Source: Cyanidioschyzon merolae
Lineage: Eukaryota
Length of the DNA stretch: 64,000 nt
Assembly: GCA_000091205.1 (NCBI GenBank)
Contig: AP006497.2
Direction: 5' to 3' (one strand)
This document shows, piece after piece, positions 12,942 through 41,831 of this stretch; the first letter of the stretch is position 1, and each line of letters starts with the position of its first letter. The position numbers and the translations under genes are program-made. The notes under the pieces are model-generated. The model was not told the origin of the DNA. It did not search any database and saw only the letters and a list, made by a program, of their open reading frames with translations.

Positions 12942-15698
12942 ATGGGTCGGGCTCGGGAGCCCGCGTATCGTAAGAGGGGTTTTCAACGGACCTGGATCAG
13001 CAAAGTTTATCTGGCAAACTTAGGCGAGTCATCGGCGGTGGATGAAACGCAGTCCCCAAACCTCGGTCTAACGTGCTGGGCACCGTCGATATGTCCTGCT
13101 AGCCAGCACGGACGTGCTGGCGCTTTCCTCCCGCTGGCTTCTGGACCAATTGTTGGCCTCCTGAGGCACCGCCCGGACCGCAGAGAGCGCCTCCAGACGA
13201 GCTTGAACGCTCGGAGCGCCACCGCGGAAGCGAAACGCTTCTTTCTCCAGCGGCGTCGATGCCACCATGCACCGCAAGCCTTTTCTAGGGCGCTTCATAC
13301 ACCGCCGAGAGGCCAGCGCACGCTGCATGACTCCCAGTTTTTGGGAAGAGCAAGTGAGTTTCACCGACCTTGTCTGCTACGGCGACAAGCACGTGCACCA
13401 TGGTCCTTGTGCATGGAGCAAGGCGACCGCGCTTCCGCTTCGGAGCGTACAACTCCTCCGCGTACCGCAAATGACGTTCAGCAAGGCATCCAAGAGGCAA
13501 GTCAGCGAAAAGCCGGTGCACGAAGACACCCGGGGCGGCGTTTTGCTGCGTTTACGCAGATGCTGGCCCGTCGTTCGACCTACCGCGATGGCCTCGTGCT
13601 GCTCCTGCTCGTACTGCTGGCATATGCCATGGCGGGAACCACGAGTTATGCCATAACGCAGCGCTATGATCCAAGTGCGGTACGAATATCGTGCGACCCG
13701 CGCGTGCTACCGGCGTACGGTTTCCAGTCGCTCATGAGACTGGTACTGGCCTACGGATTCTCACTGGTATTCTCGTTAATCTACGCGTACATTGCGTACA
13801 GGGCCTCGTTTGCTGCGCAAGTGCTGCTTCTCATTATTGACGTTTTGCAATCCGTCCCTATTCTCGCTTTTGTCCCAGCAGCAGTGCTGGGCCTGATCGC
13901 CATGTTTCCAGGGCAACGCATTGGGGTCGAGCTGGCAGCGATGCTGTTGCTCTTCACCTCGATGGCGTGGAATATGCTTCTTGGCTTTTACCAGTCCCTA
14001 ATATCCATACCGCCGGACCTGATGGAGGCAGCCAGAATACTGCGACTCTCAGCGTGGCGGCGTTTTTGGTTGCTGGAAGCGCCTTCGGGCGTGTGCTCCC
14101 TCGTCTGGAACTCCATTATCTCCGTGTCCAGCGGGTGGTTCTTTCTGATAAGCATCGAGAGCTTCTCACTGGGGCCCGGCAGAGAATATCGTCTGCCGGG
14201 CTTGGGAAGTTTCCTTGCTGAGGCTGCGGATCGAGGCAATATGCGCGCGATCTTCTGGGGTCTGTTCACTGTAGTGTCGCTTATTATCTGCATCGATATG
14301 TTGATCTGGCGTCCGCTGATCGTCTGGAGTGAGCGCTTCAAGTTCTCGACGAACGCCAGTTCCGGCATCGGGGCGATCAGTTCGCTGCAGAGGAAGGCAT
14401 CGCGCTCGCCTTCGTCGTCGTCGTCTGGGCTGCGTTCGTCACTGGGGTCGGACGCTAATTTCGCGGATGAAGACGACGACCGCGAGAACGATAACTACGA
14501 CGACGACGACGACGATGATGATGAGAATGACGCGTCTTCTTTCGCGTGGGCTGGTGCACCACGTCGGCAGTTCCGTGTTCTGGAGCTTGTCCAGATACCG
14601 GATGCAACCGCGAGTGCCACAAGCAGCGCGCCCGGACTCGCGATCATGCACAGCATCGAAGGTGAGTCTGCTCCCGGAGCCGAGCAGGTTGTCATCCAAC
14701 AACGCGAACTGGACGCACCACGAAGCATCGTGTTTGCATATTTCCAGCGCTCTCCATTGATGCGTGCCGTTCACCGGCGATTCTTTCTGCCTCTCTGGCA
14801 GAAATTCATTGATGCAGACGTGATCTGGGAGCGTGCAACGGAAACAACTTCCCAGACGCTGGCACTAGCCTGGAAGCGCGTGCATCAGCCGCATCTGTTG
14901 CTGCGGCTCTGGGGCTTTATGGTTCGTTTGCTTACATGGAGCAGTGTGCTGGGCATCGCCTGGTTGGCGTTTCTGGCGTTTCGCGTTGCCCACCACGCGC
15001 TACGGATTCTGCAGACGATTTCGTGGCGCTCGTGGATCACCATTCTGAGCTGTGCTGGACTGACCTTTGGTCGTGTGCTGACGGCTTTAGCGCTCTCGTT
15101 ATTATGGACAGTTCCACTGGGGGTTGCTGTCGGGTGCTCACCGGCACTGGCTCGCGTCCTCCAGCCGCTAGTCCAGATCGCTGCTTCCGTGCCAGCGACG
15201 GCAGTATTCCCGTTTCTGCTCCTGGGGTTAGCGAATTTCGGCGGGCTTGGCTTGCAGATTGGCTCGATCCTCTTGATGATGTTCGGCACGATGTGGTACA
15301 TTCTGTTCAACGTCATTGCAGGTGCTGCAGCGATTCCCGCGGAGCTCTGGGAAGTTGACGCGGTTTACAACAAGGCCACAGACTCGTGGCTTGCTCGCCA
15401 GTGGAGACGATGGCGCTTTCTCATCCTGCCCGGTATCTTCCCATACCTCATCACTGGTATTGTTACGGCTGTTGGAGGCGCGTGGAATGCGAGCATCGTT
15501 AGTGAGTACGTCCAGTTCCAGGGCCAGATTTTATCGACCAAAGGTCTGGGGGCGCTCATATCGAACGCAGCGGCTCGTGGTGATTTACCGTTGCTGTTAG
15601 CGGGGACCCTGGTCATGTCTAGTTTGGTGCTGCTCACGAATCGTTTTGTCTGGGCGCCACTCTACAAGTTAGCGCGTGAACGCTACACGCTCAACTAG
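12942..15698 (+). CDS. Fused tandem ABC-importer-type permease with two BPD_transp_1-like transmembrane domains (NitT/TauT or SsuC/TauC/NrtB-like; compare bacterial duplicated-permease COG4986). A low-complexity Ser/Asp-rich linker joins the two domains. The conserved part probably starts at the ATG at 13560; upstream is an Arg-rich extension of 206 aa.
   Basis: ATG verified at 12942 and at 13560. Domain 1 (about 13560-14350) is six-TM-like and ends with an EAA loop MEAARILRLSAWRRFWLLEAPSG. The linker reads SSSSSS...DEDDDRENDNYDDDDDDDDEND (TCG and GAC/GAT microsatellites at 14411-14425 and 14497-14522). Domain 2 (about 14770-15698) carries a second EAA-like loop ELWEVDAVYNKATDSWLARQWRRWRFLILPGIFPYL and a C-terminal TM bundle. 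The EAA motif is the signature cytoplasmic loop of binding-protein-dependent ABC importer permeases. Confidence 0.75.
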   Translation: MGRAREPAYRKRGFQRTWISKVYLANLGESSAVDETQSPNLGLTCWAPSICPASQHGRAGAFLPLASGPIVGLLRHRPDRRERLQTSLNARSATAEAKRFFLQRRRCHHAPQAFSRALHTPPRGQRTLHDSQFLGRASEFHRPCLLRRQARAPWSLCMEQGDRASASERTTPPRTANDVQQGIQEASQRKAGARRHPGRRFAAFTQMLARRSTYRDGLVLLLLVLLAYAMAGTTSYAITQRYDPSAVRISCDPRVLPAYGFQSLMRLVLAYGFSLVFSLIYAYIAYRASFAAQVLLLIIDVLQSVPILAFVPAAVLGLIAMFPGQRIGVELAAMLLLFTSMAWNMLLGFYQSLISIPPDLMEAARILRLSAWRRFWLLEAPSGVCSLVWNSIISVSSGWFFLISIESFSLGPGREYRLPGLGSFLAEAADRGNMRAIFWGLFTVVSLIICIDMLIWRPLIVWSERFKFSTNASSGIGAISSLQRKASRSPSSSSSGLRSSLGSDANFADEDDDRENDNYDDDDDDDDENDASSFAWAGAPRRQFRVLELVQIPDATASATSSAPGLAIMHSIEGESAPGAEQVVIQQRELDAPRSIVFAYFQRSPLMRAVHRRFFLPLWQKFIDADVIWERATETTSQTLALAWKRVHQPHLLLRLWGFMVRLLTWSSVLGIAWLAFLAFRVAHHALRILQTISWRSWITILSCAGLTFGRVLTALALSLLWTVPLGVAVGCSPALARVLQPLVQIAASVPATAVFPFLLLGLANFGGLGLQIGSILLMMFGTMWYILFNVIAGAAAIPAELWEVDAVYNKATDSWLARQWRRWRFLILPGIFPYLITGIVTAVGGAWNASIVSEYVQFQGQILSTKGLGALISNAAARGDLPLLLAGTLVMSSLVLLTNRFVWAPLYKLARERYTLN

Positions 15699-22987: not shown

Positions 22988-23528
22988 GGGACGACTTCGG
23001 GTTTGTTCCTTCGTCCATCAAGCGGCGTGAATCGTTGCGCCCATGAGTTGCCAACGAACGGAAAGATCAACAACTTGAAGCATGCGTGATTCGAGCATGC
23101 TTTTCATACGGAAATGAAAAGCTCAGACGCTTGAAAATGTACCTTGGATCATGGTCTTGGTCATGTTACGAACGTCTGTTCGACGCTTACGCGAATCACT
23201 CTGATTCCGATGACGTCATGAATTCCAGGGGCAAGGCATCGAAGACGTCACTCTGGACATACGACCGAGAATCCTAGAACTACACATGAATCCTCAACGC
23301 ATATTTCTGCACTTTGCAAGTCGAGACTTTTGCTCTAACCCATTCGGAAACAAAAGTCACAAAGCAGGAAGCGAGCATCCGGTACACTGCCCTATTCCAG
23401 TCTGGCACACAGACCGATGCAGCAGCGCCCCGATTCGGCAGCGGAACAGAAGCGCCGCTCCTGGACACACTGCTCCGTTTGTTTTTGAGCGCTCGCCGAG
23501 CTCCGGGGAATGCGTTCCGGGAACGATC

Positions 23529-26500
23529 ATGACATCCCAGCGAGAACTCCTTCGTTACGTGGAGAGTGATTTGCGGTCTCTGGTAGCGAAGCTGGGGAAA
23601 CGAAAAGTTGAACGAGCGTTTGTCGAAGATCTCCCGTTTCTTACGGAGCGTTTCTCGAGCTGGAAGAGTGCCGTGGAACGCGTACTGACGCAGTTGCGTG
23701 AGGATGATACGCAAGCTCGTCTTTCGTTCTCACTTTCGATCGACCTGGTGGGTCACGTGCTCATCCACAACGTACAGTCAGTGGAGAACTGGCGTAAAAG
23801 TGAAGCAAGTACGCTTCTTGCACTGGGGCTTCTGCACCGTCTCGCAAGCCAGGCAGCGTTGCCAAGCCACCGCGTCGCAGACGTCGTCGCCTTGCTGAGC
23901 TATTTCGTTCTCAGTGTTCAGAAACTGGTCCTTCGAAGCGAGTTTTCGAAGCGTCGTTGGTTGATTTATGGCGAGCGCAACGGTGCCCAGGTTCCGGGAA
24001 CGAACTCGGATCAATCGGACGCAACGGACTCGTTTTCACGTCGATCCTCGCCCGGAACAGTATCTTTGGTGGAAGAGGCCCTCGAGCAAGCCACCTGCGA
24101 GCAAACAGCTGCGGTCGGACAACGTGCCACCGAAACCCAAGTGCTGCCGGGAAACGACCTAGTCTTGGTCGAGCGGCAACTGCTACGAGTCCTCCAGGTC
24201 CTTTTCGAAATACCATCTGTGCAACACAGGGCCGGTGCAGCTCAGGAATACGATGTAGACGCTTCGAAATCAGACTCAGCGGCTAGTGTCTCCAAAATGT
24301 GCCAAGCATCCCTACCACAGCGACTATTTACGCTCCTGACGCTGATTGAGCAGCTTCCCGGAGTGACTGCAGTGGTTGCTCGCACTGCAGCAGCTGCGTT
24401 AGAGCGATACTGCACAGCATTATTCGAGGATCGTCTCTGGAGAGAGCAAGTCGCGATAGCTTTCGTGGAGGATCTCTGTTTGCTGACGCTGGAACGGCCG
24501 CCTGTTCACGGCTTTGGGACGCTCTTGTCCCTGCAGGTCCAGACGAACACGAGCAGTCCAGTCGAGTTGCCGGGTGCTTCGGCCTCTGCCGCAGAGCGCA
24601 CGTCATCATCGCTGCAGCAAGAGCGACGAGCACAGGCGTCGCCCGAGGCCGAGGACCTTGACGAAGCCCGAGAGGGCCATCCAGAATCGCTATCCGCCGC
24701 TCAAGTGACGTCCACTGGTGCGATGCAACAGAAGGAAACGTATTGCCTGGAAGTGATCACCCCAAGCCCTGATGTTATGACGTCGCTGCTGGCGGAAGCG
24801 CTGGGCAGGGCGATGCGTGGTGGTCTCGCTCCCCAGGCTTGCCTGCTCAAGCGTCTTTTTCCTTTCGTCGAAGCACAGCTGAATGAGGCCGAGCTCTCCT
24901 GGTCAATATGCAGTCTCGCAGCCGCGTTAATCCAGGCACCGGTGGCCTCGTTTGGCGCCCTGCTCGCGTCACTTGCTGGAAGGATGCTGGAGCAATTAAG
25001 GGTCTCGATGGATCCGAGCTATTCATCATCTGACACGAATCCTAATCAAGTTCTGTTGATGCATCATCGCGCACTCTTGTTGATCGAGACTTTTCGCGAT
25101 GCATTGCTTACCGGAGCGTCCACTGCAGAGGACCGTGCTTTTATCAGCAACAGCAGCAGCAGCAGCAGCTCCTGGTCACCACAAGCGCTACTCCGATACC
25201 TGGAGCGCGAATCAGATAGGACGTTCGCGTCACAAAACGCTGCTGCTGGAGCAGGCGATACGACCTCAGCGCTGGGTACGGAACAAAAATCGTTGCCTTC
25301 AGTCGATGAGCGACGTCGTCTTCGGGAGGACGTTGTTACGTCCCGAGAAACAAGCGCGGAGGCCTTTTCAAAATTGCCTGCGTCGGAGACCGGGGGTATA
25401 CTCACTCAGTGGGTGGCGATGCTGCAGCTGTGTGTCACCACCGGCACATCGATGGTGACGGAGCTGCAAATGCTGCCCACAGGTCCGTTGCGGCATCAGC
25501 GCCCGCTACTTCGCCAACTCGGGCAACTTATCGAGGAGCCCAAGCATAGAAACCTGGACGGCGAACTCTGGGGGCAGCTTACGAGCGCGGCGCTGGGTCT
25601 GCTTTTCGTCTTGTTGGAAGCCACCGATCCCGTGGCGGATGTGGACTTTCTGCGACGCACCTGGCCGGACTTTTTGACGGCGTTTGGAGCTTTGCTCGCA
25701 CGTGCACAGCAGGTTCCGGCGGTGGTGCTTCAGCCGCTCATCGAACGGGGCATGGATTCTTTGCTCCAGCGTCTGGCAGTTGTACGGAGCTCTGTGGACG
25801 CGCCCTCGATCATGAATGACTCCAGCACCGACGCATCTGGGCTTCTTGGTGGCTCTGCTGGGCAGCCACCTGCGATGCATGGCTCGACGTCGGCACTGGA
25901 ACCCTTTGAGACGGTGTTCATCTGCCTGTGTCGTACCCTGCGGCTGGTGCGAAGTACACGATCCGCCTCTGCTTCTGCTTCCGACAGCGAGGCTGTGCAT
26001 GTGTTGACCTGCCTTGGGCGCGTTTTACAGAGCAACTTGCAGCGCGCGCTTTCGACAATGCACGAATCGGAGTACAACACGAACACACCGCAAGCTGTGG
26101 TCGAACGCAGGCCGCTTTGTAGTTCCTGGAGTCCCAATACTTGGCTTGCTCTCGTGGAGAGCATTCTAATCGCAGGAGACGACGATCGTGATGCTGCCTC
26201 GGGTGAGCCGATGCTTGATCCCGTGATCGACAGCAGCTTCGAGCACTGGGACAAGTACCTATTGCAGCAGCAGCAGCAGCAGCAGCAGCAGCGCGCAGTA
26301 GGCTGCGTTCCCGCAGTGGCGTTGCTACGAGCGCTTTTCACTGTTGCTCACGCGGCCCAGGAAGACACCTCCACGCGGAACCGTGCCTTTTTACATGCCG
26401 TCTTCGTCGTCAAAGCATACTTGAACGCTGTCCAGCGGCAAGCAAGGGCAGCAATTGTTGCCTCAAACGGAGATGGACCCTATACTGGAAATGCCTGGAC

Positions 26501-29456
26501 AATACCAACATCAAATGCTACGAATGCTGCTGTTGTTACAGCAACCGGTCCCTCTGAATGGCCTGATGGTACAGGCACCGAGCAGGCATCCACGGAAACA
26601 GGCGAGCAAGTCGCTAGCGGCGCTATGTCGTATGCGAGCACCACTGGAACTCAACCGCCTTTCCTGTTTTGGCAGACACCAGTAGCGGCTCAAGTTTGGG
26701 ACTTGTTTGCGCAGTTCGTTCCCATGATGGCCTCTACAGATCACGTCCAAGTCTTGAATGGATGGCGCGGACTCTTCCAACAACTCTTCCTCGCACAGAG
26801 CATAGACGATAAGACCGCGGCGGCGCCAGATGCGGTACAACACGCGTTTCGACCGACACCGCAGGCACCGCTGTTCGCTCCGCTGCTGCAGCTTATCGAA
26901 CAGAGGCGAGATAACGCTCAGTCGGATCGAGTGGACGGGGCTGTGATCTCCAATGCGATATCGCCACTGCGTCTTTTCCGAGAGATTCTGCAGCTCGTCA
27001 TGACGCTGGTTCAGGACTATGGCGAGCTTTTCGTTGCTGACGGCTGGTACGCCGTGCTCACGCTGTGCAAGGAGGCAGTGCTTGCGGGTCACGACCCGCT
27101 GACATTCACATCCGAAACAGATCGCAAGGGTATTCATGATGCCGGTTTTGCCTTGCTGCAACTCTTGGCTAAGGAGTATGCGTCCAGTTTTTTGCACCAA
27201 CCGGCTGCATCAGAAGTTCGAACGCTGTGGCTAGAAACCTTGACATCATGGGCGCTGCATGCCGCTGATGTGAACATGGCGCTCAGCAGCATTGGGATGC
27301 TGTGGAGTCTCTGCGACCTCCTGCAACCGAGCGAATCAACAGATGCCGCGTTATGGTGCCGAGTGCTCTCTACCTTGGCGCGTCTCTGTATAACGGAGCG
27401 CGTCGATGTCCGAAACAGTGCACTGAAGACGTTTCTCGGAACGCTGTTGGCTCATGGCCAAAACCTAGTGGAGCACGACCGCTGGCGAGGGATCTGGGAA
27501 GAGGCGCTCTTGCCGCTCATCGAAGGGCTCTTGGTGCGCTCACCGGCACCCTCGTCGCTGGCTGGTGAAGGTACCGCGCTAGAAGCGCCAGTAGAGGCAA
27601 CATCAACAACCACCGATGCCTCTGCAGAGGCGACAGCGAAGCATGCGCCGGCACGCGCGCTCACCAGCGCTACTACCAACGATGATGGCAATGATAGAAC
27701 CATCGTCAAAGGTGATGCTGTTGTTGGGATGCATCCAGCAAGTGCAAAAGATGCAATCAAGCACTGGAACGCGAGTCGACTGCTTCTCATAGAGGGCCTC
27801 GTGCGACTTATCCAACAATACCTGGTTAGTCGCTGGTTAGCTCTGGAAGCATTTCCGCGCCACTGGGAATCGCTGCTAGACTATTGGGAGCAAACCAGCT
27901 GCCTCTATGACGTCCACAAGAGCCCGCCGTCGAACCAGGAAGCGCTTTTGATCGCACTGGTTGCGTTGTGGCAGACCTCGCTGGAAACGCTGAGCCAGGT
28001 CGTTTGCTGTGAGCCGGCATTGCCCGGCTCCCGATCGTCCAACCAAAGCGCTCGGCAACTCTGGTTGCAGACCTGGCAACGCGCCCAGCGACGGGCTTTT
28101 CTCGCCAACTGCTGGCCGCGTTTCTCTGTGAGCGTCGTCGAGAGCATCGTGCAGGCGTTGTTGTCGCTGTGCGGACGCGTTCAACAGCAGACACCAGATG
28201 TGGATATTCTCGATATCGTGCAGAGCCTGGGATACCAGTGTCTCGAGGCGCTTATCGAGGACACCATAGACCCCAAAGTCGCCAAGGCATCCTCCGCCAC
28301 ACTAGGGATGCAACGGGGCAAACCGGTGCAACGATCCGCACTCGTACGCGACGTTTTCGACGTGCTCGCGCGTTGGCCCGGTGACTCGGTAGGTGTTCAC
28401 CGATGTGCGCATCTGAATGCCCTGCTATCCTTCCTGGAACGTATATGCGGGAGCATTATACGAGCCACGACGGGATCAGCGGCTGGTGTGACCTCCAGCG
28501 ACGAACATTCTGTGATGCTCTGCATTGTCCAGGGCACGCTGGAGCGACTCGTACGCGGAATGCCTCCGAGTGCCACTTGTGCGGCAGAGCAGGAGCAGTT
28601 GGTGCTTCGTTTTCTGGAGCTGCTTGCGAGCATCCTGGTACCGAGGCGTACCTGGAACGGGAGTCTAGTAGCTGCTGTCGTCGACGGGTCGTCCACAGCA
28701 CCAACCGATGCACCAGCAGCATCTGCACAGCAACAGCCGAGCAGCCTGGTGAGCACCAAACATGTCAGCGGTGCGAACGCGTTTGTCGAGAGTGCCGTGT
28801 TCTCGCTTGCTGCCCTGGTTGACAAGCTTGAAGACAACGAGGAGACCAGGGCGCTGCTGACGGATGCGGTGCTTGCACGTATTGCTGCGCTGTGTGAGCG
28901 CTTTCTCTTCGAGCACGACATCCCCCTGCCTGAATCCTTTGACGGTGGCACGCTCCATATGATTCACACTGGTCAACTGGATGAAGAGAAATGCAGCATC
29001 GTGATGTTACAGCTGGGTGCGCGCCTCGGTCTGGTGGACTTGCTCGAGCGTGCACTGGGCCTCGCCCCGGATATCTCGGTGGACGAACACTGGTTTTTAC
29101 TCGTTACGAGCGCCTATCGCTTCAATCTGCGTCTTGCTGCTATAGAGGCTCTGTTTCACGTCGCTGCTGGACTGGATTCTGGGGCGGCACCTGCTTCGCC
29201 ATTTGCGCTGAGCCGCCTGGCGAGCGCCGCGTCTACGGTGGCCGCAGCACGTGTGGCAGTTCAGCGTTTGATGCAACGAGTCGAGCGGTGCGCTGCTGCG
29301 TATCGACGTCAGTCGGGGTGCTGTCCACTGCCGTACCTCATGCGAATGTTCGAGGCCTATGTGCGATTTCAGGCGGACGCGCTTACGAAGCGTGGTGTTC
29401 ACTTGTCCTCTGCAGCAGACGTTGGGACTCAGAGAGCAGCAAACGGCACAGCGTGA
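23529..29456 (+). CDS. MON2: MON2 homolog, a large ARM/HEAT scaffold of the BIG/GBF1-related family with no Sec7 domain seen (about 1975 aa). The track ORF begins at 23286; the homologous start is the ATG at 23529.
   Basis: The N-terminus MTSQRELLRYVESDLRSLVAK resembles human MON2 AVKKLLENMQSDLRALSLE. The C-terminal region SIGMLWSLCDLL...LWCRVLSTLARLCITERVDVRNSALKTFLGTLLAHGQNLVEHDRWRGIWEEALLPLIE matches MON2 SIGLLWNISDYF...[57 protein letters not shown]. I saw no FRLPGE Sec7 motif. Internal CAG microsatellites encode poly-Ser (25145-25169) and poly-Gln (26265-26291). Confidence 0.7.
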   Translation: MTSQRELLRYVESDLRSLVAKLGKRKVERAFVEDLPFLTERFSSWKSAVERVLTQLREDDTQARLSFSLSIDLVGHVLIHNVQSVENWRKSEASTLLALGLLHRLASQAALPSHRVADVVALLSYFVLSVQKLVLRSEFSKRRWLIYGERNGAQVPGTNSDQSDATDSFSRRSSPGTVSLVEEALEQATCEQTAAVGQRATETQVLPGNDLVLVERQLLRVLQVLFEIPSVQHRAGAAQEYDVDASKSDSAASVSKMCQASLPQRLFTLLTLIEQLPGVTAVVARTAAAALERYCTALFEDRLWREQVAIAFVEDLCLLTLERPPVHGFGTLLSLQVQTNTSSPVELPGASASAAERTSSSLQQERRAQASPEAEDLDEAREGHPESLSAAQVTSTGAMQQKETYCLEVITPSPDVMTSLLAEALGRAMRGGLAPQACLLKRLFPFVEAQLNEAELSWSICSLAAALIQAPVASFGALLASLAGRMLEQLRVSMDPSYSSSDTNPNQVLLMHHRALLLIETFRDALLTGASTAEDRAFISNSSSSSSSWSPQALLRYLERESDRTFASQNAAAGAGDTTSALGTEQKSLPSVDERRRLREDVVTSRETSAEAFSKLPASETGGILTQWVAMLQLCVTTGTSMVTELQMLPTGPLRHQRPLLRQLGQLIEEPKHRNLDGELWGQLTSAALGLLFVLLEATDPVADVDFLRRTWPDFLTAFGALLARAQQVPAVVLQPLIERGMDSLLQRLAVVRSSVDAPSIMNDSSTDASGLLGGSAGQPPAMHGSTSALEPFETVFICLCRTLRLVRSTRSASASASDSEAVHVLTCLGRVLQSNLQRALSTMHESEYNTNTPQAVVERRPLCSSWSPNTWLALVESILIAGDDDRDAASGEPMLDPVIDSSFEHWDKYLLQQQQQQQQQRAVGCVPAVALLRALFTVAHAAQEDTSTRNRAFLHAVFVVKAYLNAVQRQARAAIVASNGDGPYTGNAWTIPTSNATNAAVVTATGPSEWPDGTGTEQASTETGEQVASGAMSYASTTGTQPPFLFWQTPVAAQVWDLFAQFVPMMASTDHVQVLNGWRGLFQQLFLAQSIDDKTAAAPDAVQHAFRPTPQAPLFAPLLQLIEQRRDNAQSDRVDGAVISNAISPLRLFREILQLVMTLVQDYGELFVADGWYAVLTLCKEAVLAGHDPLTFTSETDRKGIHDAGFALLQLLAKEYASSFLHQPAASEVRTLWLETLTSWALHAADVNMALSSIGMLWSLCDLLQPSESTDAALWCRVLSTLARLCITERVDVRNSALKTFLGTLLAHGQNLVEHDRWRGIWEEALLPLIEGLLVRSPAPSSLAGEGTALEAPVEATSTTTDASAEATAKHAPARALTSATTNDDGNDRTIVKGDAVVGMHPASAKDAIKHWNASRLLLIEGLVRLIQQYLVSRWLALEAFPRHWESLLDYWEQTSCLYDVHKSPPSNQEALLIALVALWQTSLETLSQVVCCEPALPGSRSSNQSARQLWLQTWQRAQRRAFLANCWPRFSVSVVESIVQALLSLCGRVQQQTPDVDILDIVQSLGYQCLEALIEDTIDPKVAKASSATLGMQRGKPVQRSALVRDVFDVLARWPGDSVGVHRCAHLNALLSFLERICGSIIRATTGSAAGVTSSDEHSVMLCIVQGTLERLVRGMPPSATCAAEQEQLVLRFLELLASILVPRRTWNGSLVAAVVDGSSTAPTDAPAASAQQQPSSLVSTKHVSGANAFVESAVFSLAALVDKLEDNEETRALLTDAVLARIAALCERFLFEHDIPLPESFDGGTLHMIHTGQLDEEKCSIVMLQLGARLGLVDLLERALGLAPDISVDEHWFLLVTSAYRFNLRLAAIEALFHVAAGLDSGAAPASPFALSRLASAASTVAAARVAVQRLMQRVERCAAAYRRQSGCCPLPYLMRMFEAYVRFQADALTKRGVHLSSAADVGTQRAANGTA
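26265..26291. repeat. (CAG)9 trinucleotide repeat encoding Q9 inside MON2. A second (CAG/CAA)8 tract at 25145-25169 encodes a Ser run in another frame.
   Basis: Read directly from the sequence: cagcagcagcagcagcagcagcagcag. Confidence 0.9.
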
Positions 29457-30327: not shown

Positions 30328-31029
30328 CTACGGTGCAGGTCGATCGAGCAGTGCTGGATCCAGCTTGCAGTGCAGTTCCTGCTGCGCTTCGAATAGGCGA
30401 AGGAACGCCTCAACGGCGGCACGTGTATCCGCTCGCCAGCAGAGTGTCGCCCTCAGCTTATCGATAGATGATCTCTCCGCTGCACTATCGTTGTGCGCTG
30501 ACGCTGTATCCAGCGGAAGATAGCAGCGTTGCCGTAGGGTAGACTCTGGCCACTGGCCTCCTTCCGCCGGTACCAGCTCGAGAACGCGCCCCAGGAACCA
30601 GAACGTCACCGCCGGTCGACGAAGCGTGCCTTTCCCGTCCAAAGAGTCAGTACACGGGACCGCTTCACAGAGACTGCAGTGCCGAACCAGCGGTCGAAGT
30701 AGTTGCACACGGGCACCGGCCTCCTCGAAGGCCTCGCGACAGGCCGCAGCAGCGGGTGTTTCACCGACCTCGACACCGCCGGCCGGTAAGATGTAACGGG
30801 CTGGCTGTTGCCCCGCTTGTCGCTGATTAGCGCCGTCGCTGGTTTGATGTCGAGACGTCACAGCTAGGATGAAGCGCTCATCCGGTGACAGGGCCAACAC
30901 ACCGGCTCGCACGCGAGCATCCAAGGCGCTCCGGTCGGCGGAAAGCCTCTGGGCACAGCGGCACGGCTCGAAGCCAGTCACAGTTTGCCATCCGAGCTCC
31001 GAGACTGAAGCTGGTGTATCGTCCGACAT
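30328..31029 (-). CDS. Nudix hydrolase (234 aa from the ATG at 31029). The track ORF extends to 31407 from a GTG, and that extension overlaps the SmpB gene on the other strand.
   Basis: The canonical Nudix box GGVEVGETPAAAACREAFEEAGARV fits Gx5Ex7REUxEExGU. ATG verified at 31029..31027 (MSDDTPASVSELGW...). The codon at 31407 is GTG. Confidence 0.8.
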   Translation of the reverse strand: MSDDTPASVSELGWQTVTGFEPCRCAQRLSADRSALDARVRAGVLALSPDERFILAVTSRHQTSDGANQRQAGQQPARYILPAGGVEVGETPAAAACREAFEEAGARVQLLRPLVRHCSLCEAVPCTDSLDGKGTLRRPAVTFWFLGRVLELVPAEGGQWPESTLRQRCYLPLDTASAHNDSAAERSSIDKLRATLCWRADTRAAVEAFLRLFEAQQELHCKLDPALLDRPAP

Positions 31030-31240
31030 TATAGGGCGGCTCAGACCCCACCGCGCTACTGGTCTGGGGGTCGCATTCCCGCAGACCTTGTGCTTTGGTA
31101 CCCGCGAGCAACGCAGAAGCCGGTCAACGTCGCTGTTGCGCACTGTTCGAAACGAAGCGCTGTACGCGCAGGGTAACGTTTGTGTGAATCGAAACGCTTC
31201 TCTGCGGCTGTGTTCGCTGCTCGGGCGCCTTCGGGGACGC
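31030..31240. promoter_or_regulatory. Putative shared, bidirectional promoter region of about 210 bp between the divergent Nudix (-) and SmpB (+) genes.
   Basis: The call comes from the head-to-head arrangement of the two homology-anchored start codons. No motif was verified. Confidence 0.35.
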
Positions 31241-31876
31241 ATGGCTACCTTAAGCTTCCTTTTCGGTACGTCTTCTGCCAGGTTCACTTCAGGACACGAT
31301 GCATGGTCGCGGGCGGGTGTCCGAGCGTCGTGGAACGTGGCGCCAGCCCAGCGTTTGCCCCGAGCGAAGGTCGGACTGCGGACCCTGGTGGCGCGCACCA
31401 AGAGCACCTCGAGTCCTAGCGTCGAAAACCGTCGAATAAACTTTCAGTATGAGGTTCTTTGGACCTTGGAATGTGGAATAGAGCTCAAAGGAACGGAGAT
31501 TAAGTCGGTGCGGGCGGGGAAGATGAACATCCGAGACGCGTTTGCGCGGGCGAAGCGAGGAACCAACGACCTCTGGCTCTATAACTGCCATATTGCGCCA
31601 CATGACCGAACAGCGACGTTCTTCAACCACCAACCGACACGACCTCGCCGTCTCTTAGCGCATAAACAGGAAATTCGGCGGTTGCTGCAGGCTCAAGAGG
31701 AAAAGGGACTTACGCTGGTACCGCAGCGGTGTTACTTCGACCAGCGCCAGCGGCTGAAAGTGCTGCTCGCAGTCGCCCGTGGTAAGAAACTTCACGACAA
31801 ACGCGAGAGTATTCGGGAACGTGACGAGGCACGTTCCATGAAACGATTCGCCAAATACGACCTGAGAGACTTGTAG
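31241..31876 (+). CDS. smpB: SsrA-binding protein SmpB (tmRNA trans-translation cofactor) with an N-terminal organellar-type presequence of about 60 aa. The track ORF starts at 30869 and overlaps the Nudix gene; the ATG at 31241 is preferred.
   Basis: ATG verified at 31241. The presequence MATLSFLFGTSSARFTSGHDAWSRAGVRASWNVAPAQRLPRAKVGLRTLVARTKSTSS is R/S/T-rich with no acidic residues. The SmpB core NRRINFQYEVLWTLECGIELKGTEIKSVRAGKMNIRDAFA...LWLYNCHIAPHD...RPRRLLAHKQEIRRL...KGLTLVPQRCYFDQRQRLKVLLAVARGKKLHDKRESIRERDEAR is collinear with E. coli SmpB ([35 protein letters not shown]...TRKLLLNQRELDSL...[22 protein letters not shown]). Confidence 0.85.
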   Translation: MATLSFLFGTSSARFTSGHDAWSRAGVRASWNVAPAQRLPRAKVGLRTLVARTKSTSSPSVENRRINFQYEVLWTLECGIELKGTEIKSVRAGKMNIRDAFARAKRGTNDLWLYNCHIAPHDRTATFFNHQPTRPRRLLAHKQEIRRLLQAQEEKGLTLVPQRCYFDQRQRLKVLLAVARGKKLHDKRESIRERDEARSMKRFAKYDLRDL

Positions 31877-32140: not shown

Positions 32141-32848
32141 CTAGCGGTGCTTTTCGTAAACCCCTTGTGCCCCTGCGACAATGACCACAGAGGCCATGTC
32201 GAGAAATAGTCCATGCTCGACAACGCCTACTGTGTCGCGCAGCGCTTGTGCTGCCTGGTAGGCATCGGCAATGGGCTTCTCGAAATACAGATCCACAATA
32301 TAGTTCCCGTTGTCAGTGACGTACAGGGCACCAGCGGCATCGCGACGTGCCTCAGCGCGGCAGCCTGCCAGGGCAGGAAGCGCGGCAATTTTCCGCATGG
32401 TATGCTGCCAACAGAAAGGTGTGACTTCCACAGGCATGGCTCCGCTGACGCCAAGACCCGGTACAAGCTTGCTCTCATCAACAATAACAATGAACTGTTT
32501 GGCGCAGACTTCGACCATTTTTTCCCGCAATAGAGCACCACCGCGTCCTTTCACCAGGTTCAGTGCCGAGTCAACCTCATCCGCTCCGTCTATGGCAACA
32601 TCGAGTTCTGCATCCTCGTCCAAGGTGGTCAAAGGGATATTCAAAGATCGCGCTTGCTCCTCGGTGCGCACCGAGGTTGGTACGCAGCGGATGTCGCGCA
32701 GTGCTCCAGCGGCGAGTTTCTGACCTAGCCGCTCGACCGCAAAAGCAGCAGTGGAGCCTGTACCTAGACCAACCACCATGCCCGAGCGAACGTAGTCATC
32801 GACTGCCTTGTACCCGACCTGTTTCTTGAGATCGTCGGCGCTCGCCAT
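32141..32848 (-). CDS. rpiA: Ribose-5-phosphate isomerase A (235 aa from the ATG at 32848). The track ORF extends to the ATG at 33052, giving a possible 68-aa N-terminal extension.
   Basis: MASADDLKKQVGYKAVDDYVRSGMVVGLGTGSTAAFAVERLG...VPTS...IDGADEVD...LVKGRGGALLREKMV... matches E. coli RpiA [35 protein letters not shown] and its catalytic DGADE and KGxGGAL blocks. Both ATGs were verified. Confidence 0.85.
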   Translation of the reverse strand: MASADDLKKQVGYKAVDDYVRSGMVVGLGTGSTAAFAVERLGQKLAAGALRDIRCVPTSVRTEEQARSLNIPLTTLDEDAELDVAIDGADEVDSALNLVKGRGGALLREKMVEVCAKQFIVIVDESKLVPGLGVSGAMPVEVTPFCWQHTMRKIAALPALAGCRAEARRDAAGALYVTDNGNYIVDLYFEKPIADAYQAAQALRDTVGVVEHGLFLDMASVVIVAGAQGVYEKHR

Positions 32849-33621
32849 TGATGTGGAGAAAACGCCCCCAACAGCTAGTCGACGTGAATGCGCGCGTAGC
32901 CAGCGTCCACTGGTACTGGCTGTTGTGCTTCTGCCCAGGATGCGTGTATACCGGTCAGTTCTGGCGCCTATGTTGCAAACCCGAGGTTGATTTTTGAGAG
33001 TCCACAGGAACGTTCCTGTTGGTGATGCGAAACTCACAGAGCGGTCGAACATAGCCTACGAATACGTCGACAGCTTACGACTCCTGCAAATGCGACTGGG
33101 GAGCGCAGTCGCACCGCGAGCCGATGCGCCTCCTGGGCAGCCGCTCGCGCTGCGCCACAGGCGCACGGCGTGTTACGAGCAGCACGCCTTGCGGCAGGCG
33201 CTGCTTCGCCTCGGCAGACCTGCTGGTCGTTTTGTGCACGAGGGTTGCAGCTGCACGTTCCATGTGGGTTGCTGAAGCGTCACGGCTGTATTGCCGTACG
33301 ATGAATGGCGGCGCATCCGGTGTTGCGCCTCACGCTAGGCGAAAGGCGACGCAGCAGTGGCACGATCCCTGGCGGGACTCGAACCGCTGCTCTCGCTACC
33401 GACTCTAGAACATAAAAGACGCACGTGTCGTGGACAGAGTTTGCATGTTTCCTGGTGAACTCCATTTGTCAAGCATGTTGGGTCGCATAGAGCGTGAGGC
33501 ACGCGCGGTTGCGTCTGTGCGGAACGCACACCCGTTTCGTTTCGGTGCTGCGCGCCCGAACGTGGACTGCGCGGTCGAGCCCCCAGACACCACGGCAGCG
33601 AACTGGATTTGGAATGGTAAC

Positions 33622-35699: not shown

Positions 35700-38600
35700 A
35701 GTACCGCAGCGCTATTCCTATTCCCTTATGCGCTACGACTCGATAGGTTTCGCATCATGGAATATTTGTGGGATAACCTCGAAACTATACGACGAGATAT
35801 CGAATTACCAGTACAGTAATGAAGAACTGATACACGTCGAGGACTGTACAAAAGGAAAAGAGATCCAACGGGATACGGAGAAGGAGACACAGAAACCTCA
35901 TGATCCACCTAGATGCAAAATAACCAGAGAAAGCAGCTCAGGAAAGAGCCCGAAGAAGAAGAAGACCAGCAAGAAAAAAACAGAAGAATAGAAAAAAGAA
36001 CTCCCAAACGAGCCCATCACAAGTTATCCCCTGAAAGGGCACCCCAGCGGGAACTCAAGAAAGCCGTCGCCGAACCCAGGCACCTGCTCACAGCGCTGAA
36101 GATCCGAAATGCCGTGCATGCAAATCTTTAGACCAATTGGCACGCGAGTTTGTAGATGGGAATCAGAAGACTGCCAGAGAACTGGGACTGCTTGCACCAG
36201 AACACAACAGTTGCAAACCTCAGTACCTCAAACGACGTACCAAAACTCGGATTGATGAATGCCACCGACTCAATAAGATCCTCAACCGCACCGCCATACG
36301 CGCCAACGCCGGAGACAAGGAAGCGAAGGCAGTCCCAACGGCGCTACAGGCACAACATGAGGAAGCTATCAAAAGAAAGAAGAAACGTTCCAGAGAAGAC
36401 AAACGAGGGGATCGAAACCGCAAAATCGCCTCCCTGGCGAAATCTATGCTCGAGAGCACCACCGAAGATGAGACCTGGCGCTACATTCGATCGAGACTGG
36501 ACCCACCAAAAAAGTGCTTGGGGCTCACACCAATCGTTTATAAGAAAGCGCTGAGGACGGAGAGTGCCTCAGTGAATGAGGCCTGGACGGACCACGGCAC
36601 AGAATTACATGAAGACGCAACTGGGCACTGCCGAAACCGAAACTATTGGCACCAATATGCTGCAGAACTACCACGCCTCGACCCGGTACCGGAATGGAAC
36701 GACCCAATCTTCTGGCCTGAATCTGTTCGGGCCCTGTTAAGCTCATGCAACCGCAAAACACCTGGCATTGACGGTATCGCTGCCGAGTGGATGAAACTGG
36801 TGATCCCAAAATACGAGACAACAGGGACACCATCGATACCAGATAAACCTGACACAATCTTAGGCAAACGCCTTCTGGAGCTCATCCAACGCATGTTTGA
36901 AGAAGCCTACATCCCTGATGTATGGAGGGCTGCCGAGGTCGCACCGATCCTCAAAAAGGACTCCCACATACACAGACACGAACAACTACCGGCCTATCGG
37001 CCTCATCCCGTCAATCATGAAGCTACTTTTGCGCCAACCTCACGAACCGGATCCAGAGAGGCCTCGAGGAACGCAAGTTCTTCGCCCCAGGGAGGGCTGG
37101 ATTCCGGAGCCGCGAGGAGTGCATGAGCCATGCCCTGACCCTCACTGAAGTGGCGCAACGTCGCTTTATTCGTGACCGACAACCAACTTACGTATGCTTC
37201 ATTGACTTCCAAAAGGCCTTTGACACGGTCCCGCACGAGGCCCTATTTTTGAAGATGGAACGAGCCGGAGTCTCCGCAAAGTGCTTGGCGTTCTTCCGTG
37301 CGCTCTCTGCAGACTCGTGGATGCGCATCCGACTGGGCGACGGCTGAAGAACCCCTTCCATAAGAATCCGCCGTGGACTGCGGCAGGGCGAGCGCGCATC
37401 CCCGCTCCGTTTTAACATCTTCATCAACGATCTGCTGAACAACTGCAGACAATTCGCGGCTGAGGCGCCGTGGATAGACTGTGGAGATGCTCGGTGAGGA
37501 GCGCCCACATGGGAACTGCCTCGAAGGCCTTCTACTTGCGGACGATGTCGTGCTGTTGGCACCCGCCCTGGAAACGCTTGCGGCTAGCATGGAACAAGTC
37601 AGCGCCTGGGCCGATCGCTGGGAGATGAACGTAGGAGCATCGAAGTGCGGCGTCATGGTCATCCATGGAGACTCGCAGAGCATTCGCAATCGCTCGTGGC
37701 GGTTGCAGAATCAGGAAATTCCGATCGTGGAAAAATATCGCTACCTGGGGGTCGGTCTCACGCCGACGCTCGACGAAAAGGCACACGTCGACGTGGTGAT
37801 CGCCAAGATGCATAGACGTACAGCGATCGCACGCCCAGTCCTATCCGACCCCTCTATCCCCTTAGCAATCCGTACCAGGGCACGAAGGATGTGTATCATC
37901 CAGCCTGCGACCTGGGGTGCTGAATGGTGCGGCATGAAGCACCCAAATGCCTCGCGTCTGCAGACAGCCGCCAACAGGGCAATGAGACTCGTTGTTGTTG
38001 GATGCTCAGTGCAGAGCAGAGCAACCACCCCGCTGGCACTCGGACCTGAACTCCAAATACTCTCAATAGAAGCGATAGCACCAGGTTGCCGGGCACGCAT
38101 ACGGGCCAAAGGGCGCACTATGCGCACCTCTTTGAGTCGGGTTTTCATGCAGACCCCAACGCACCGCAAGAACACTTGGATGAAATCAACGCAGATTTGG
38201 GTGAAGCGCCTCTTAGGAGACAACATGCTCCAATCGTTCCCCAGGAATACAGAATTCTCCCGTCGCCTGAAGCGAACGGTCCAAACAACAGTACGGGAAT
38301 GTAGACATGCAGTCAGTCGCGCCCTTAACGCCGGCTTGACTCTATACCGGAACTACAACCTAGCATACACATGCAAGTACTGGTGGGAGGCGCTGGAGTT
38401 CCCGGGACTTGCTCGAGGTACCCAGTGGCTCGCGAAAATCCGCGTTGGTGGCTTCTGGCTACCAGCACGGGCTCTAAGCCGTATGGGAACACTGGAATCG
38501 CACTGGGAATCACACTGTCCCTGCTGTGGGGATGAGACCCCCAAGACGCTGACATATTTAGGCTTACAGTGCCCGCGCTGGATGCAGGAGCGCAACGAGC

Positions 38601-41660: not shown

Positions 41661-41831
41661 ACAAGAAAGAACTTTATTGGACAACATCTCAAAGTCGATT
41701 TATATGAGAAGAAGTTGGAACCAGCAGTGGGTGGCCGGTCCAAAAAGACGGGGAGGCGTGTTTGCACTTCAGTTGGAGACGCTTTTGCTAGGGCACGTTC
41801 ACCACCACTCCTGTACACCGGTGGCGATGGC

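What the first reader, a model, noticed from the sequence alone, without database searches (positions are those of the whole stretch)
12942..15698. Tandem-duplicated bacterial ABC-importer permease (two EAA-loop TM domains) fused in one eukaryotic gene with a eukaryote-style low-complexity linker
ABC-importer permeases of the EAA-loop class are overwhelmingly prokaryotic (or organelle-encoded). Here two such domains sit in a single 918-codon nuclear-style ORF. Each has a recognisable EAA loop (MEAARILRLSAWRRFWLLEAP; WRRWRFLILPGIFPYL). They are joined by a poly-Ser/poly-Asp linker encoded by trinucleotide repeats, and an Arg-rich extension of about 200 aa precedes the ATG at 13560. No ATPase (NBD) or substrate-binding protein gene lies in the window. 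The gene sits between ordinary eukaryotic housekeeping genes, which argues against bacterial contamination of the assembly. Candidate explanations are horizontal acquisition of a NitT/TauT-type (COG4986-like duplicated permease) transporter later adapted to the eukaryotic host, with the extension perhaps targeting it to an organelle, or a repurposed channel that no longer needs an NBD.
Basis: partly seen in the sequence, partly recalled or inferred. Interest (0 to 1): 0.8.

Follow-up and report, generated by a model that had tools for sequence, protein, structure and literature searches.

The report
Red-algal plastid ABC transporter permease gene
This is the already annotated Cyanidioschyzon merolae nuclear gene CMO283C: a double membrane subunit of an ABC transporter that most likely came from the cyanobacterial ancestor of the plastid, whose ATPase partner is encoded on another chromosome, so it is an ordinary organelle-derived gene of unknown substrate.

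Summary
A 918-codon ORF (12942-15698, +) carries two homologous BPD_transp_1 domains, each with an EAA loop. It also has a basic ~206-aa N-terminal extension and an acidic and Ser-rich linker containing a (GAC)n repeat.

[quoted passage not shown] It is not from a stramenopile.
- Orthologues occur in every named red alga among the top hits. The next best hits are all cyanobacterial 578-aa duplicated permeases (~53% identity).
- Local gene order is conserved with Cyanidiococcus.
- This points to endosymbiotic gene transfer plus a targeting presequence, not a recent horizontal acquisition.

The "NBD-less channel" idea is refuted. In about 90% of cyanobacterial loci the permease lies directly downstream of an ATPase (ABC_tran + AAA_assoc_C). 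C. merolae encodes that ATPase, with intact motifs, on another chromosome (CMK129C), and other red algae keep it too.

No binding-protein gene is linked. No curated family names the substrate. A published suggestion (bicarbonate) rests on 24% identity to CmpB. Fused Mg2+ and K+ sensor domains in bacterial relatives hint instead at cation homeostasis.

Verdict: already known gene, uncharacterised family, low to moderate interest.

The parts
12942..15698 (+). Complete intronless ORF of CMO283C (918 aa plus stop), annotated as 'unknown ABC anion transporter', C. merolae 10D
   Evidence: ORF listing. Exact-sequence match to XP_005537656.1 / BAM81620.1 / UniProt M1V613. Locus name from PMC10154280.
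12942..13559 (+). N-terminal extension (aa 1-206). It is basic and acid-poor, is not conserved, and is absent from the cyanobacterial homologues. Inferred organelle (plastid) targeting presequence. The true start codon (M1, M158 or M207) has not been established.
   Evidence: Alignment A1. Composition matches the extensions of SmpB, RpiA and CMK129C. Between strains it shows 4 synonymous and 6 nonsynonymous changes and no indels. Homology to the cyanobacterial N-terminus starts near aa 197, upstream of M207.
13560..14336 (+). Transmembrane domain 1 (aa 207-465), six predicted TM helices
   Evidence: Best Pfam BPD_transp_1 stretch is aa 276-451. Hydropathy. AlphaFold2 model with pLDDT mostly 85-93 in this region.
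14025..14084 (+). EAA loop 1 / coupling helix (aa 362-381, EAARILRLSAWRRFWLLEAP)
   Evidence: Invariant W372, R374, F375, W376, L378, E379 and P381 in A1. Lies between TM4 and TM5.
14349..14711 (+). Lineage-specific, disordered, Ser- and Asp-rich insertion (about aa 470-590) on the NBD (stromal) side. Present only in Cyanidioschyzon, Cyanidiococcus and Cyanidium.
   Evidence: Alignment A1 columns 545-660. pLDDT below 50. Net charge -15. Two of the three nonsynonymous differences between strains in the core (codons 502, 534), plus the single 3-nt indel, fall in it; the third (codon 646) lies in the conserved inter-domain segment.
14472..14515 (+). (GAC)n trinucleotide repeat encoding the poly-Asp tract
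   Evidence: Tandem Repeats Finder: period 3, 14.7 copies. A 3-nt length polymorphism against locus L092.
14712..14918 (+). Conserved inter-domain segment (aa 591-659). It contains the invariant S595, R603 (nearly invariant), S604, R608 and P617 (nearly invariant), and is modelled as helices with no hydrophobic membrane pass.
   Evidence: Alignment A1. Model helices, with mean pLDDT 89-94 over mature residues 391-420 (aa 597-626) and lower (61-72) in the remainder. Hydropathy.
14919..15695 (+). Transmembrane domain 2 (aa 660-918), six predicted TM helices
   Evidence: Second BPD_transp_1 stretch. NCBIfam partial matches at aa 699-896. Sequence match to CmpB 9u9z and NrtB 8w9m. Foldseek TM-score 0.67-0.69 to CmpB.
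15351..15431 (+). EAA loop 2 (aa 804-830, EVDAVYNKATDSWLARQWRRWRFLILP), with a 6-aa insertion shared with Cyanidiococcus and Cyanidium (Pyropia has a slightly shorter one at the same site)
   Evidence: Alignment A1: E804 and Y809 nearly invariant; R823, W824, I828, L829 and P830 invariant.

Best explanation
CMO283C encodes the membrane subunit of a two-component, type I (importer-fold) ABC transporter. The red-algal lineage most likely inherited it from the cyanobacterial ancestor of the plastid, and it is now nuclear-encoded.

Proposed working, with shown and inferred steps marked:
1. The two fused, homologous six-helix domains form the pseudo-heterodimeric translocation pathway (fold shown by model and fold search).
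2. Their two EAA coupling loops face the side where two copies of the ATPase CMK129C dock (topology predicted; docking inferred). CMK129C is an ABC NBD plus a C-terminal AAA_assoc_C domain, encoded on another chromosome.
3. ATP binding and hydrolysis by that ATPase drive alternating access (inferred from the family).
4. The ~200-aa basic N-terminal extension, absent from the cyanobacterial proteins, is a targeting presequence that delivers the protein to a plastid membrane, either inner envelope or thylakoid (inferred).
5. The acidic and Ser-rich linker is a tolerated, fast-evolving insertion on the stromal face, specific to Cyanidioschyzon, Cyanidiococcus and Cyanidium (shown).
6. As in the cyanobacterial operon, no substrate-binding protein appears to be part of the system (shown for cyanobacterial gene linkage only).
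7. The substrate is unknown, probably a small inorganic ion (inferred).
For: Identity: exact match to XP_005537656.1, named CMO283C in PMC10154280.

Fold:
- BPD_transp_1 in two stretches.
- The halves are homologous, E = 6e-13.
- 6 + 6 TM segments.
- AlphaFold2 model with pLDDT 77 and pTM 0.74.
- Best solved-structure matches are CmpB and NrtB (TM-score 0.63-0.69, rmsd about 3 A) and the fused-tandem FbpB.

Origin:
- Orthologues in Cyanidiococcus, Cyanidium, Galdieria, Gracilariopsis, Pyropia, Porphyridium and Rhodosorus, followed only by cyanobacteria at about 53% identity end to end.
- The best 80 of 305 relatives among 185,579 GTDB species genomes are all cyanobacteria, apart from one metagenome bin labelled Acetobacteraceae and a few labelled only 'uncultured bacterium'.
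- In an NJ tree the red algae form one group that sits next to the cyanobacteria.
- The gene order ADH - Vps4 - permease - steroid dehydrogenase - UBX is conserved with Cyanidiococcus.

Partner:
- The ABC_tran + AAA_assoc_C ATPase lies immediately upstream, on the same strand, in about 70 of the 80 GTDB cyanobacterial loci. In the 83-locus neighbour clustering, which adds L001, L004 and L006, it is the only widely conserved neighbour, in 75 loci.
- The C. merolae orthologue P0412 = XP_005536544.1 (CMK129C) has both domains, an N-terminal extension starting MFTIP, and intact Walker A, signature, Walker B and H-loop motifs.
- Orthologues are present in Cyanidium, Galdieria, Agarophyton, Gracilaria, Hildenbrandia, Pyropia and Porphyridium.
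- In the ATPase NJ tree it is sister to the cyanobacterial cluster.

Selection: the transmembrane domains show 0 nonsynonymous and 6 synonymous differences between strains. The extension shows 6 and 4.

Presequence: composition is like other N-extended organelle proteins in the same window.
Against: - No experimental localisation exists. The predictors quoted in PMC10154280 gave 'thylakoid lumen' and 'other' for CMO283C, and I could not run a predictor.
- The extension evolves almost neutrally and its start codon is unverified.
- The NJ trees are simple distance trees with only two outgroups. I ran 200 bootstrap replicates but never read out the support values. The two tree runs therefore cannot separate endosymbiotic transfer from an early cyanobacterium-to-red-alga horizontal transfer.
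- Presence or absence in green algae and glaucophytes was not tested.
- Whether a binding protein is encoded elsewhere is unknown.
- Transport direction and substrate are not shown.
Confidence: 0.82

Rival explanations
1. Cation (for example Mg2+) homeostasis transporter. The COG4986 / AAA_assoc_C module would be a binding-protein-independent ABC system that moves or regulates a cation. The red-algal copy would supply or balance that ion in the plastid. This rival concerns the substrate only; it is compatible with the best explanation's architecture.
For: Bacterial relatives of the ATPase carry fused cation-sensing modules:
- MgtE_N at the N-terminus (P0258). P0326 aligns with that extension, but Pfam found no MgtE_N domain in it.
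- MgtE_N + CBS at the C-terminus (P0266).
- The KdpD sensor domain (P0267, P0269).
- PTS_EIIA_2 (P0314, P0321).

The MgtE_N-fused ATPase sits in the same two-gene module with a 585-aa duplicated permease. PMC5746004 reports an M-box (Mg2+) riboswitch in the 5' UTR of the Bifidobacterium breve COG4986 transporter Bbr_0406-07. No binding protein is linked, as would be expected for a free ion.
Against: - All of this is indirect.
- No M-box was found by Rfam in the B. minimum locus or in 11 other loci.
- The CorA adjacency is a single case.
- The closest solved relatives carry oxyanions.
- Neither the cyanobacterial nor the red-algal ATPases carry these sensor domains.
- Fused sensors could indicate regulation by the ion rather than transport of it.
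Confidence: 0.15
2. BCT1-like bicarbonate (or nitrate) importer of the carbon-concentrating mechanism. CMO283C would be the CmpB/NrtB equivalent and CMK129C the CmpC/D equivalent, as suggested in PMC10154280.
For: The closest solved structures by sequence and by fold are CmpB and NrtB. The ATPase NBD is closest to CmpD and NrtD, E = 1e-52. The gene is listed as a candidate, and as a reciprocal best hit of cmpB, in PMC10154280. Some database names call the orthologues CmpB or TauC.
Against: - Similarity to CmpB is marginal: E = 1e-6 and 20-24% identity, covering one half only.
- NCBIfam NtrB, TauC and SaoP scores are 55, 35 and 62 bits against cut-offs of 209, 342 and 295. The same holds for the Nostoc orthologue.
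- The true cyanobacterial orthologues form a distinct two-gene module without a CmpA/NrtA binding protein, and with AAA_assoc_C in place of the NrtA-like domain of CmpC/NrtC.
- Neither gene responds significantly to CO2 (PMC10154280).
Confidence: 0.1
3. One reading: a horizontally acquired bacterial permease, later adapted to a (stramenopile-like) eukaryotic host, possibly working as a channel without an NBD.
For: Bacterial-type domain architecture in a nuclear gene. No NBD in the 64-kb window.
Against: - The organism is C. merolae.
- The gene is shared by all named red-algal lineages among the hits, and its nearest relatives are cyanobacteria.
- The cognate ATPase, with intact motifs, is encoded on another chromosome and is co-conserved across red algae.
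- The EAA coupling loops are under strong conservation.
Confidence: 0.03
4. Assembly artefact or bacterial contamination, or two separate genes wrongly read as one ORF.
For: None beyond the bacterial affinity of the domain.
Against: - GC content is even across the window.
- Eukaryotic neighbours lie on both sides.
- The same gene in the same local order occurs in an independent environmental strain (L092) and in Cyanidiococcus (L093).
- The fused two-domain architecture is ancestral: the bacterial homologues of 570-591 aa are also single polypeptides.
Confidence: 0.01

Closest known systems
[quoted passage not shown]
   Same: About 53% identity from the first to the last transmembrane helix. 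Same 6 + 6 TM fusion, same EAA loops, same conserved inter-domain segment. The partner ATPase has the same two domains.
   Different: The red-algal proteins are nuclear-encoded and unlinked from the ATPase. They carry N-terminal extensions of roughly 80-210 aa. Cyanidioschyzon, Cyanidiococcus and Cyanidium add a linker insertion of roughly 80-120 aa and a 6-aa insertion in EAA loop 2.
'Nrt/Ssu/Tau-like' possible novel ABC system of Ca. Liberibacter asiaticus (CLIBASIA_02415 / 02420; Proteins 2012, PMC3688454). The L. crescens orthologue B488_11500 is listed in the essential-gene set in PMC4837290.
   Same: Same module: a tandem-TMD permease plus an NBD with a C-terminal PF09821 domain, and no binding protein detected. 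No function has been assigned.
   Different: Alphaproteobacterial, so a more distant homologue.
CmpBCD (BCT1 bicarbonate) and NrtBCD (nitrate) transporters of cyanobacteria (PDB 9u9z, 9ua0, 9ua1, 8w9m, 8wm7, 8wm8)
   Same: Same type I importer TMD fold, with TM-score 0.63-0.69 per half. Same NitT/TauT-type NBD.
   Different: CmpB and NrtB are single 280-aa TMDs that homodimerise, and they need the binding proteins CmpA and NrtA. Their ATPases carry an NrtA-like domain, not AAA_assoc_C. Sequence similarity is only E = 1e-6.
Fused-tandem permeases such as Thermus thermophilus FbpB (FbpBC, PDB 9j4r)
   Same: Two type I TMDs in one polypeptide. The model aligns with it over both halves, 667 columns.
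   Different: 14% identity. A different subfamily and substrate (ferric ion), and it depends on a binding protein.
Nuclear-encoded, cyanobacterium-derived plastid ABC importer subunits in algae, for example the Chlamydomonas SulP / SulP2 / Sabc / Sbp sulphate permease (recalled from memory, not checked here)
   Same: BPD_transp_1 permeases encoded in the nucleus with transit peptides, together with a separately encoded ATPase.
   Different: That system belongs to the CysT/CysW family, has separate rather than fused permeases, and has a binding protein.

Membership tests
Type I ABC importer transmembrane domain (Pfam PF00528, BPD_transp_1) | Profile match above the curated threshold | tested here: met
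   78 bits against a cut-off of 26.4, in two stretches
Type I ABC importer transmembrane domain (Pfam PF00528, BPD_transp_1) | EAA coupling loop (EAA-x3-G-x9-I-x-LP) in the cytoplasmic loop between TM4 and TM5 of a six-helix domain | tested here: met
   Loop 1 (aa 362-381) is in exact register, with Gly replaced by Arg. Loop 2 (aa 804-830) carries a 6-aa insertion. The flanking residues are invariant.
Type I ABC importer transmembrane domain (Pfam PF00528, BPD_transp_1) | Three-dimensional fold like solved type I importer TMDs | tested here: met
   AlphaFold2 model with pLDDT 77. Foldseek hits CmpB, NrtB, FbpB, ModB and MetI. This rests on a predicted model only.
NitT/TauT-family equivalogs (NtrB, TauC, SsuC, SaoP; CmpB of BCT1) | Score at or above the NCBIfam equivalog cut-off | tested here: not met
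   SaoP 62 of 295, NtrB 55 of 209, TauC 35 of 342 bits. The Nostoc orthologue also falls below every cut-off.
NitT/TauT-family equivalogs (NtrB, TauC, SsuC, SaoP; CmpB of BCT1) | Cognate periplasmic binding protein (NrtA, CmpA, TauA, SsuA) encoded with the permease | tested here: not met
   No conserved third gene in 83 cyanobacterial loci. None in the Bifidobacterium locus, the unidentified bacterial loci L088 and L094, or by report in Liberibacter. Not testable genome-wide in C. merolae.
COG4986 + PF09821 two-gene module ('Nrt/Ssu/Tau-like' system) | Two homologous TMDs fused in one polypeptide | tested here: met
COG4986 + PF09821 two-gene module ('Nrt/Ssu/Tau-like' system) | Partner ATPase consisting of an ABC NBD plus a C-terminal AAA_assoc_C (PF09821) domain | tested here: met
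   CMK129C (P0412): ABC_tran at aa 122-259 and AAA_assoc_C at aa 478-599. The pairing is inferred from operon adjacency in about 70 of the 80 GTDB cyanobacterial loci (75 of 83 loci) and from co-retention in red algae. A physical complex was not tested.
Endosymbiotic-gene-transfer product targeted to the plastid | Closest prokaryotic relatives are cyanobacteria, and the gene is shared across the algal lineage | tested here: met
   Distance trees only, and the green and glaucophyte lineages were not examined.
Endosymbiotic-gene-transfer product targeted to the plastid | N-terminal presequence absent from the bacterial homologues | tested here: met
   Extension of about 196-206 aa, basic and acid-poor. 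All red-algal orthologues have extensions.
Endosymbiotic-gene-transfer product targeted to the plastid | Demonstrated plastid localisation and import | not testable with these tools
   Only the published predictor output is available: 'thylakoid lumen' and 'other' for CMO283C, 'thylakoid lumen' and 'chloroplast' for CMK129C (PMC10154280).

The most novel reading that the evidence does not exclude
CMO283C and CMK129C could be the plastid representative of a widespread but never characterised class of binding-protein-independent ABC transporters (COG4986 permease plus AAA_assoc_C ATPase) whose substrate is a cation such as Mg2+ rather than an oxyanion. That would make it a new kind of ATP-driven Mg2+ or cation transporter. 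Red algae would have retained it from cyanobacteria to supply or buffer the plastid.
Probability: 0.12. Interest if true: 0.65.

Novelty: already known. Interest (0 to 1): 0.22.

Why it matters
As a genome feature it is ordinary. It is one more cyanobacterium-derived plastid transporter subunit encoded in a red-algal nucleus. It is already annotated, and one paper has already discussed it as a speculative bicarbonate-transporter candidate.

The analysis adds three things.
- It corrects that candidate assignment. The gene is not a CmpB orthologue. It belongs to a distinct, functionally unassigned two-gene ABC module that is conserved in cyanobacteria, present in Bifidobacterium and reported in Liberibacter.
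- It identifies the partner ATPase, CMK129C, and shows that both subunits are retained in red algae from several classes.
- It flags cation-sensor fusions as a lead to the substrate.

Tried and rejected
- searching homologues with the Nostoc ATPase returned only close cyanobacterial relatives and gave no information on red algae. The representative-library search plus a cluster look-up solved this.
- an exact look-up of CMK129C DNA found nothing on record, so its neighbourhood was not examined.
- the first bootstrap tree script timed out and was rewritten. The rewritten script ran 200 replicates, but I never read out the support values.
- Rfam searches of 12 bacterial loci, and of the B. minimum upstream region, found no M-box or other riboswitch. 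The published B. breve M-box link could therefore not be reproduced in the sequences I held.
- the CorA gene next to the permease in Gloeothece is a single case and was rejected as evidence.
- I submitted the Nostoc ATPase for structure prediction without an alignment. The model is unusable (pLDDT 35), so the fold of AAA_assoc_C was not tested. The only statement available is the HHsearch 'winged helix' call in PMC3688454.
- no solved structure is related by sequence to AAA_assoc_C.
- codon-position GC of the N-terminal extension was uninformative about whether it is coding.
- a paper calls a Gracilariopsis NitT/TauT permease (PXF50084.1) 'chlamydia-derived'. I could not establish whether it is the orthologue of this gene. 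The orthologue found here carries a different database name (CmpB-like), so I did not use the claim.
- Contamination and two-gene readings were rejected on conserved gene order and the ancestral fusion.


Full report
**1. What is in the sequence**

The region 12942-15698 (+) is a single uninterrupted 918-codon ORF.
- Pfam BPD_transp_1 matches at 78 bits (cut-off 26.4) in two stretches.
- The halves, aa 207-465 and 660-918, are homologous to each other: 27% identity, E = 6e-13.
- Hydropathy gives six transmembrane segments per half.
- Both EAA coupling loops are present. Loop 1 (aa 362-381) is in exact register with the classical motif.
- The first 206 codons are Arg-rich (15.5%, net charge +22).
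- The linker contains a (GAC)n repeat at 14472-14515. This repeat varies by one unit in a 99%-identical environmental strain.
- GC content is uniform across the window.
- The neighbours are eukaryotic genes: Vps4, steroid 5-alpha-reductase, a UBX/TUG protein, a mitochondrial carrier, CCDC47 and EAP30/Vps36.

**2. Whose gene it is**

The translated ORF is letter for letter XP_005537656.1 / BAM81620.1 / UniProt M1V613, "unknown ABC anion transporter" of Cyanidioschyzon merolae strain 10D, on a 902,900-bp chromosome. In the literature it is CMO283C (PMC10154280). The window is therefore red-algal nuclear DNA, not stramenopile, and the gene is already annotated.

**3. Where it came from**

A search of 5.8 billion proteins returns, in order:
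- Cyanidioschyzon-like environmental sequences (99%);
- Cyanidiococcus (74%) and Cyanidium (58%);
- Galdieria, Gracilariopsis, Gracilaria, Agarophyton, Pyropia, Porphyridium and Rhodosorus;
- then only cyanobacterial "duplicated permease" proteins of 577-580 aa.

Further points:
- The alignment is collinear from the first to the last transmembrane helix at about 53% identity.
- Among one genome per 185,579 prokaryotic species, the best 80 of 305 relatives are cyanobacteria, apart from one metagenome bin labelled Acetobacteraceae and a few labelled only "uncultured bacterium".
- In a distance tree rooted with two non-cyanobacterial homologues, the red-algal and unnamed eukaryote-length sequences form one group next to the cyanobacteria. 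I computed 200 bootstrap replicates but never read out the support values.
- The local gene order ADH - Vps4 - permease - steroid dehydrogenase - UBX is the same in Cyanidiococcus yangmingshanensis and in an environmental strain.

This is the signature of an old endosymbiotic gene transfer, or at the least a transfer from a cyanobacterium before red algae diversified. It is not a recent horizontal acquisition and not contamination.

**4. The missing ATPase**

- In Nostoc punctiforme and Gloeothece the permease lies directly downstream of a 441-450-aa ATPase made of ABC_tran plus AAA_assoc_C (PF09821).
- Across the 80 GTDB loci the ATPase sits just upstream on the same strand in about 70. Three of the exceptions begin at a contig edge.
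- Clustering of all neighbouring ORFs in 83 cyanobacterial loci finds this ATPase in 75. No other neighbour occurs in more than 18, so there is no linked binding protein.
[quoted passage not shown] This is CMK129C in PMC10154280.
- It has both Pfam domains and 53% identity to the Nostoc protein. Its N-terminal extension starts MFTIP. Walker A, Q-loop region, signature (LSGGQRQRV), Walker B and H-loop motifs are all intact.
- Searching with it finds orthologues with the same two domains in Cyanidium, Galdieria, Agarophyton, Gracilaria, Hildenbrandia, Pyropia and Porphyridium, and then cyanobacteria.
- In a distance tree it is sister to the cyanobacterial cluster.

The "channel that no longer needs an NBD" idea is therefore refuted. 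The absence of an NBD from the window simply reflects how eukaryotic genes are scattered.

**5. Anatomy and likely mechanism**

An AlphaFold2 model of aa 207-918, built on 50 homologues, has pLDDT 77 and pTM 0.74. It is confident everywhere except the linker insertion.
- Its best solved-structure matches are the TMDs of the cyanobacterial bicarbonate and nitrate transporters CmpB and NrtB (TM-score 0.63-0.69, rmsd about 3 A).
- Over both halves it also matches the fused-tandem FbpB.
- By sequence, CmpB and NrtB are also the only solved relatives, at E = 1e-6 and 1e-4.
- The partner's NBD is closest to CmpD and NrtD, E = 1e-52.

With six helices per half, and the EAA loops between TM4 and TM5, both termini of each half and the whole linker (aa 456-659) lie on the NBD side. 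The linker has two parts:
- an insertion of roughly 80-120 aa (about 120 aa in C. merolae), disordered and rich in Asp and Ser, found only in Cyanidioschyzon, Cyanidiococcus and Cyanidium;
- a conserved helical inter-domain segment shared with cyanobacteria.

Between two Cyanidioschyzon strains the transmembrane domains show 0 nonsynonymous and 6 synonymous differences. The extension shows 6 and 4. The linker and inter-domain region take the other 3 nonsynonymous changes and the only indel.

The extension is absent from the cyanobacterial proteins and is not conserved among red algae. It has the basic, acid-poor composition of the extensions on SmpB and RpiA in this window and on CMK129C.

I infer the following:
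- a plastid presequence;
- a pseudo-heterodimeric TMD pair;
- two CMK129C subunits docking on the EAA loops at the stromal face;
- ATP-driven alternating access without a binding protein.

Localisation, start codon, direction and substrate are not shown.

**6. What it transports**

No curated model names either subunit. Every NCBIfam equivalog (NtrB, TauC, SsuC, SaoP; SaoA, TauB, NtrCD) falls far below its cut-off for the C. merolae proteins and for their Nostoc orthologues.

The same module was described in 2012 as a "possible novel ABC system" in Ca. Liberibacter asiaticus: tandem TMD, NBD with a PF09821 domain predicted as winged-helix, and no binding protein (PMC3688454). Its L. crescens orthologue is listed in that organism's essential-gene set (PMC4837290).

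PMC10154280 lists CMO283C and CMK129C as bicarbonate-transporter candidates, on 24% identity to CmpB, and reports no significant CO2 response. Given the distinct orthologous group and operon content, I rate that reading as unlikely.

An alternative lead points to cations:
- Bacterial relatives of the ATPase carry fused MgtE_N, MgtE_N + CBS, KdpD-sensor or EIIA domains.
- One such ATPase sits in the standard two-gene module.
- A Mg2+-sensing M-box is reported upstream of the B. breve system (PMC5746004).

I could not reproduce an M-box in the loci I held. This remains a hypothesis, at roughly 0.12-0.15.

**7. Comparison and verdict**

The gene is a member of the type I importer TMD superfamily and of the COG4986 / PF09821 module; every defining feature I could test was met. 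It is not an equivalog of NtrB, CmpB, TauC or SsuC: the scores fall below the cut-offs, there is no linked binding protein, and the ATPase has a different accessory domain. It works like a fused-TMD ABC importer.

The gene itself is already known and annotated. The family is uncharacterised. For a specialist, the existence of a nuclear-encoded, cyanobacterium-derived ABC permease with a presequence in a red alga is expected. Interest is low to moderate. It rests on the corrected orthology, the identified partner, and the cation-sensor lead.

Noticed in passing
window 30869-31876 (+): A nuclear ORF encoding SmpB, the bacterial trans-translation factor (Pfam E = 1.6e-50). It has a 184-aa basic N-terminal extension. 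This is another bacterial-type, presumably organelle-targeted gene, built the same way as CMO283C.
   Followed up: partly
window 32141-33052 (-): Ribose-5-phosphate isomerase A with a 122-aa N-terminal extension beginning MFDRS. Presumably a plastid isoform.
   Followed up: partly
P0412 (CMK129C, another chromosome), about aa 340-470: Between its NBD and its AAA_assoc_C domain, the partner ATPase carries its own low-complexity insertion that is absent from the cyanobacterial and other bacterial homologues aligned; the unnamed 556-aa relative P0261 has a shorter one at the same site. Its red-algal orthologues were not aligned. Both subunits thus carry disordered linkers that their cyanobacterial counterparts lack.
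   Followed up: no
window 15351-15431 (aa 804-830): A 6-aa insertion (TDSWLA region) lies inside the second EAA coupling loop. It is shared by Cyanidioschyzon, Cyanidiococcus and Cyanidium, and Pyropia has a slightly shorter one at the same site. This is unusual for a segment that contacts the NBD.
   Followed up: no
bacterial proteins P0258, P0266, P0267, P0269, P0314, P0321; locus L094 3425-6933: ATPases of this family occur fused to MgtE_N, MgtE_N + CBS, the KdpD sensor domain or PTS EIIA. Locus L089 has a PhoU gene directly upstream of the ATPase. These are recurrent links to ion-homeostasis regulators.
   Followed up: partly
window 36000-42000: A stretch with strong positive AT skew (0.17-0.20) and GC skew (0.17 at 40-42 kb). 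It contains ORFs with no Pfam match and one weak reverse-transcriptase hit (37481-38863, E = 6e-4, below threshold). No direct repeats of 40 bases or more were found.
   Followed up: partly
window 23286-29456 (+): A 2056-aa ORF with only a weak, sub-threshold Mon2_C match. A large, poorly characterised protein.
   Followed up: no
literature: PMC10853006 (Gracilariopsis chorda): That paper calls a NitT/TauT permease (PXF50084.1, K02050) 'chlamydia-derived' and says it is shared by red and green lineages. I did not resolve whether this is the orthologue of CMO283C or a second permease.
   Followed up: partly
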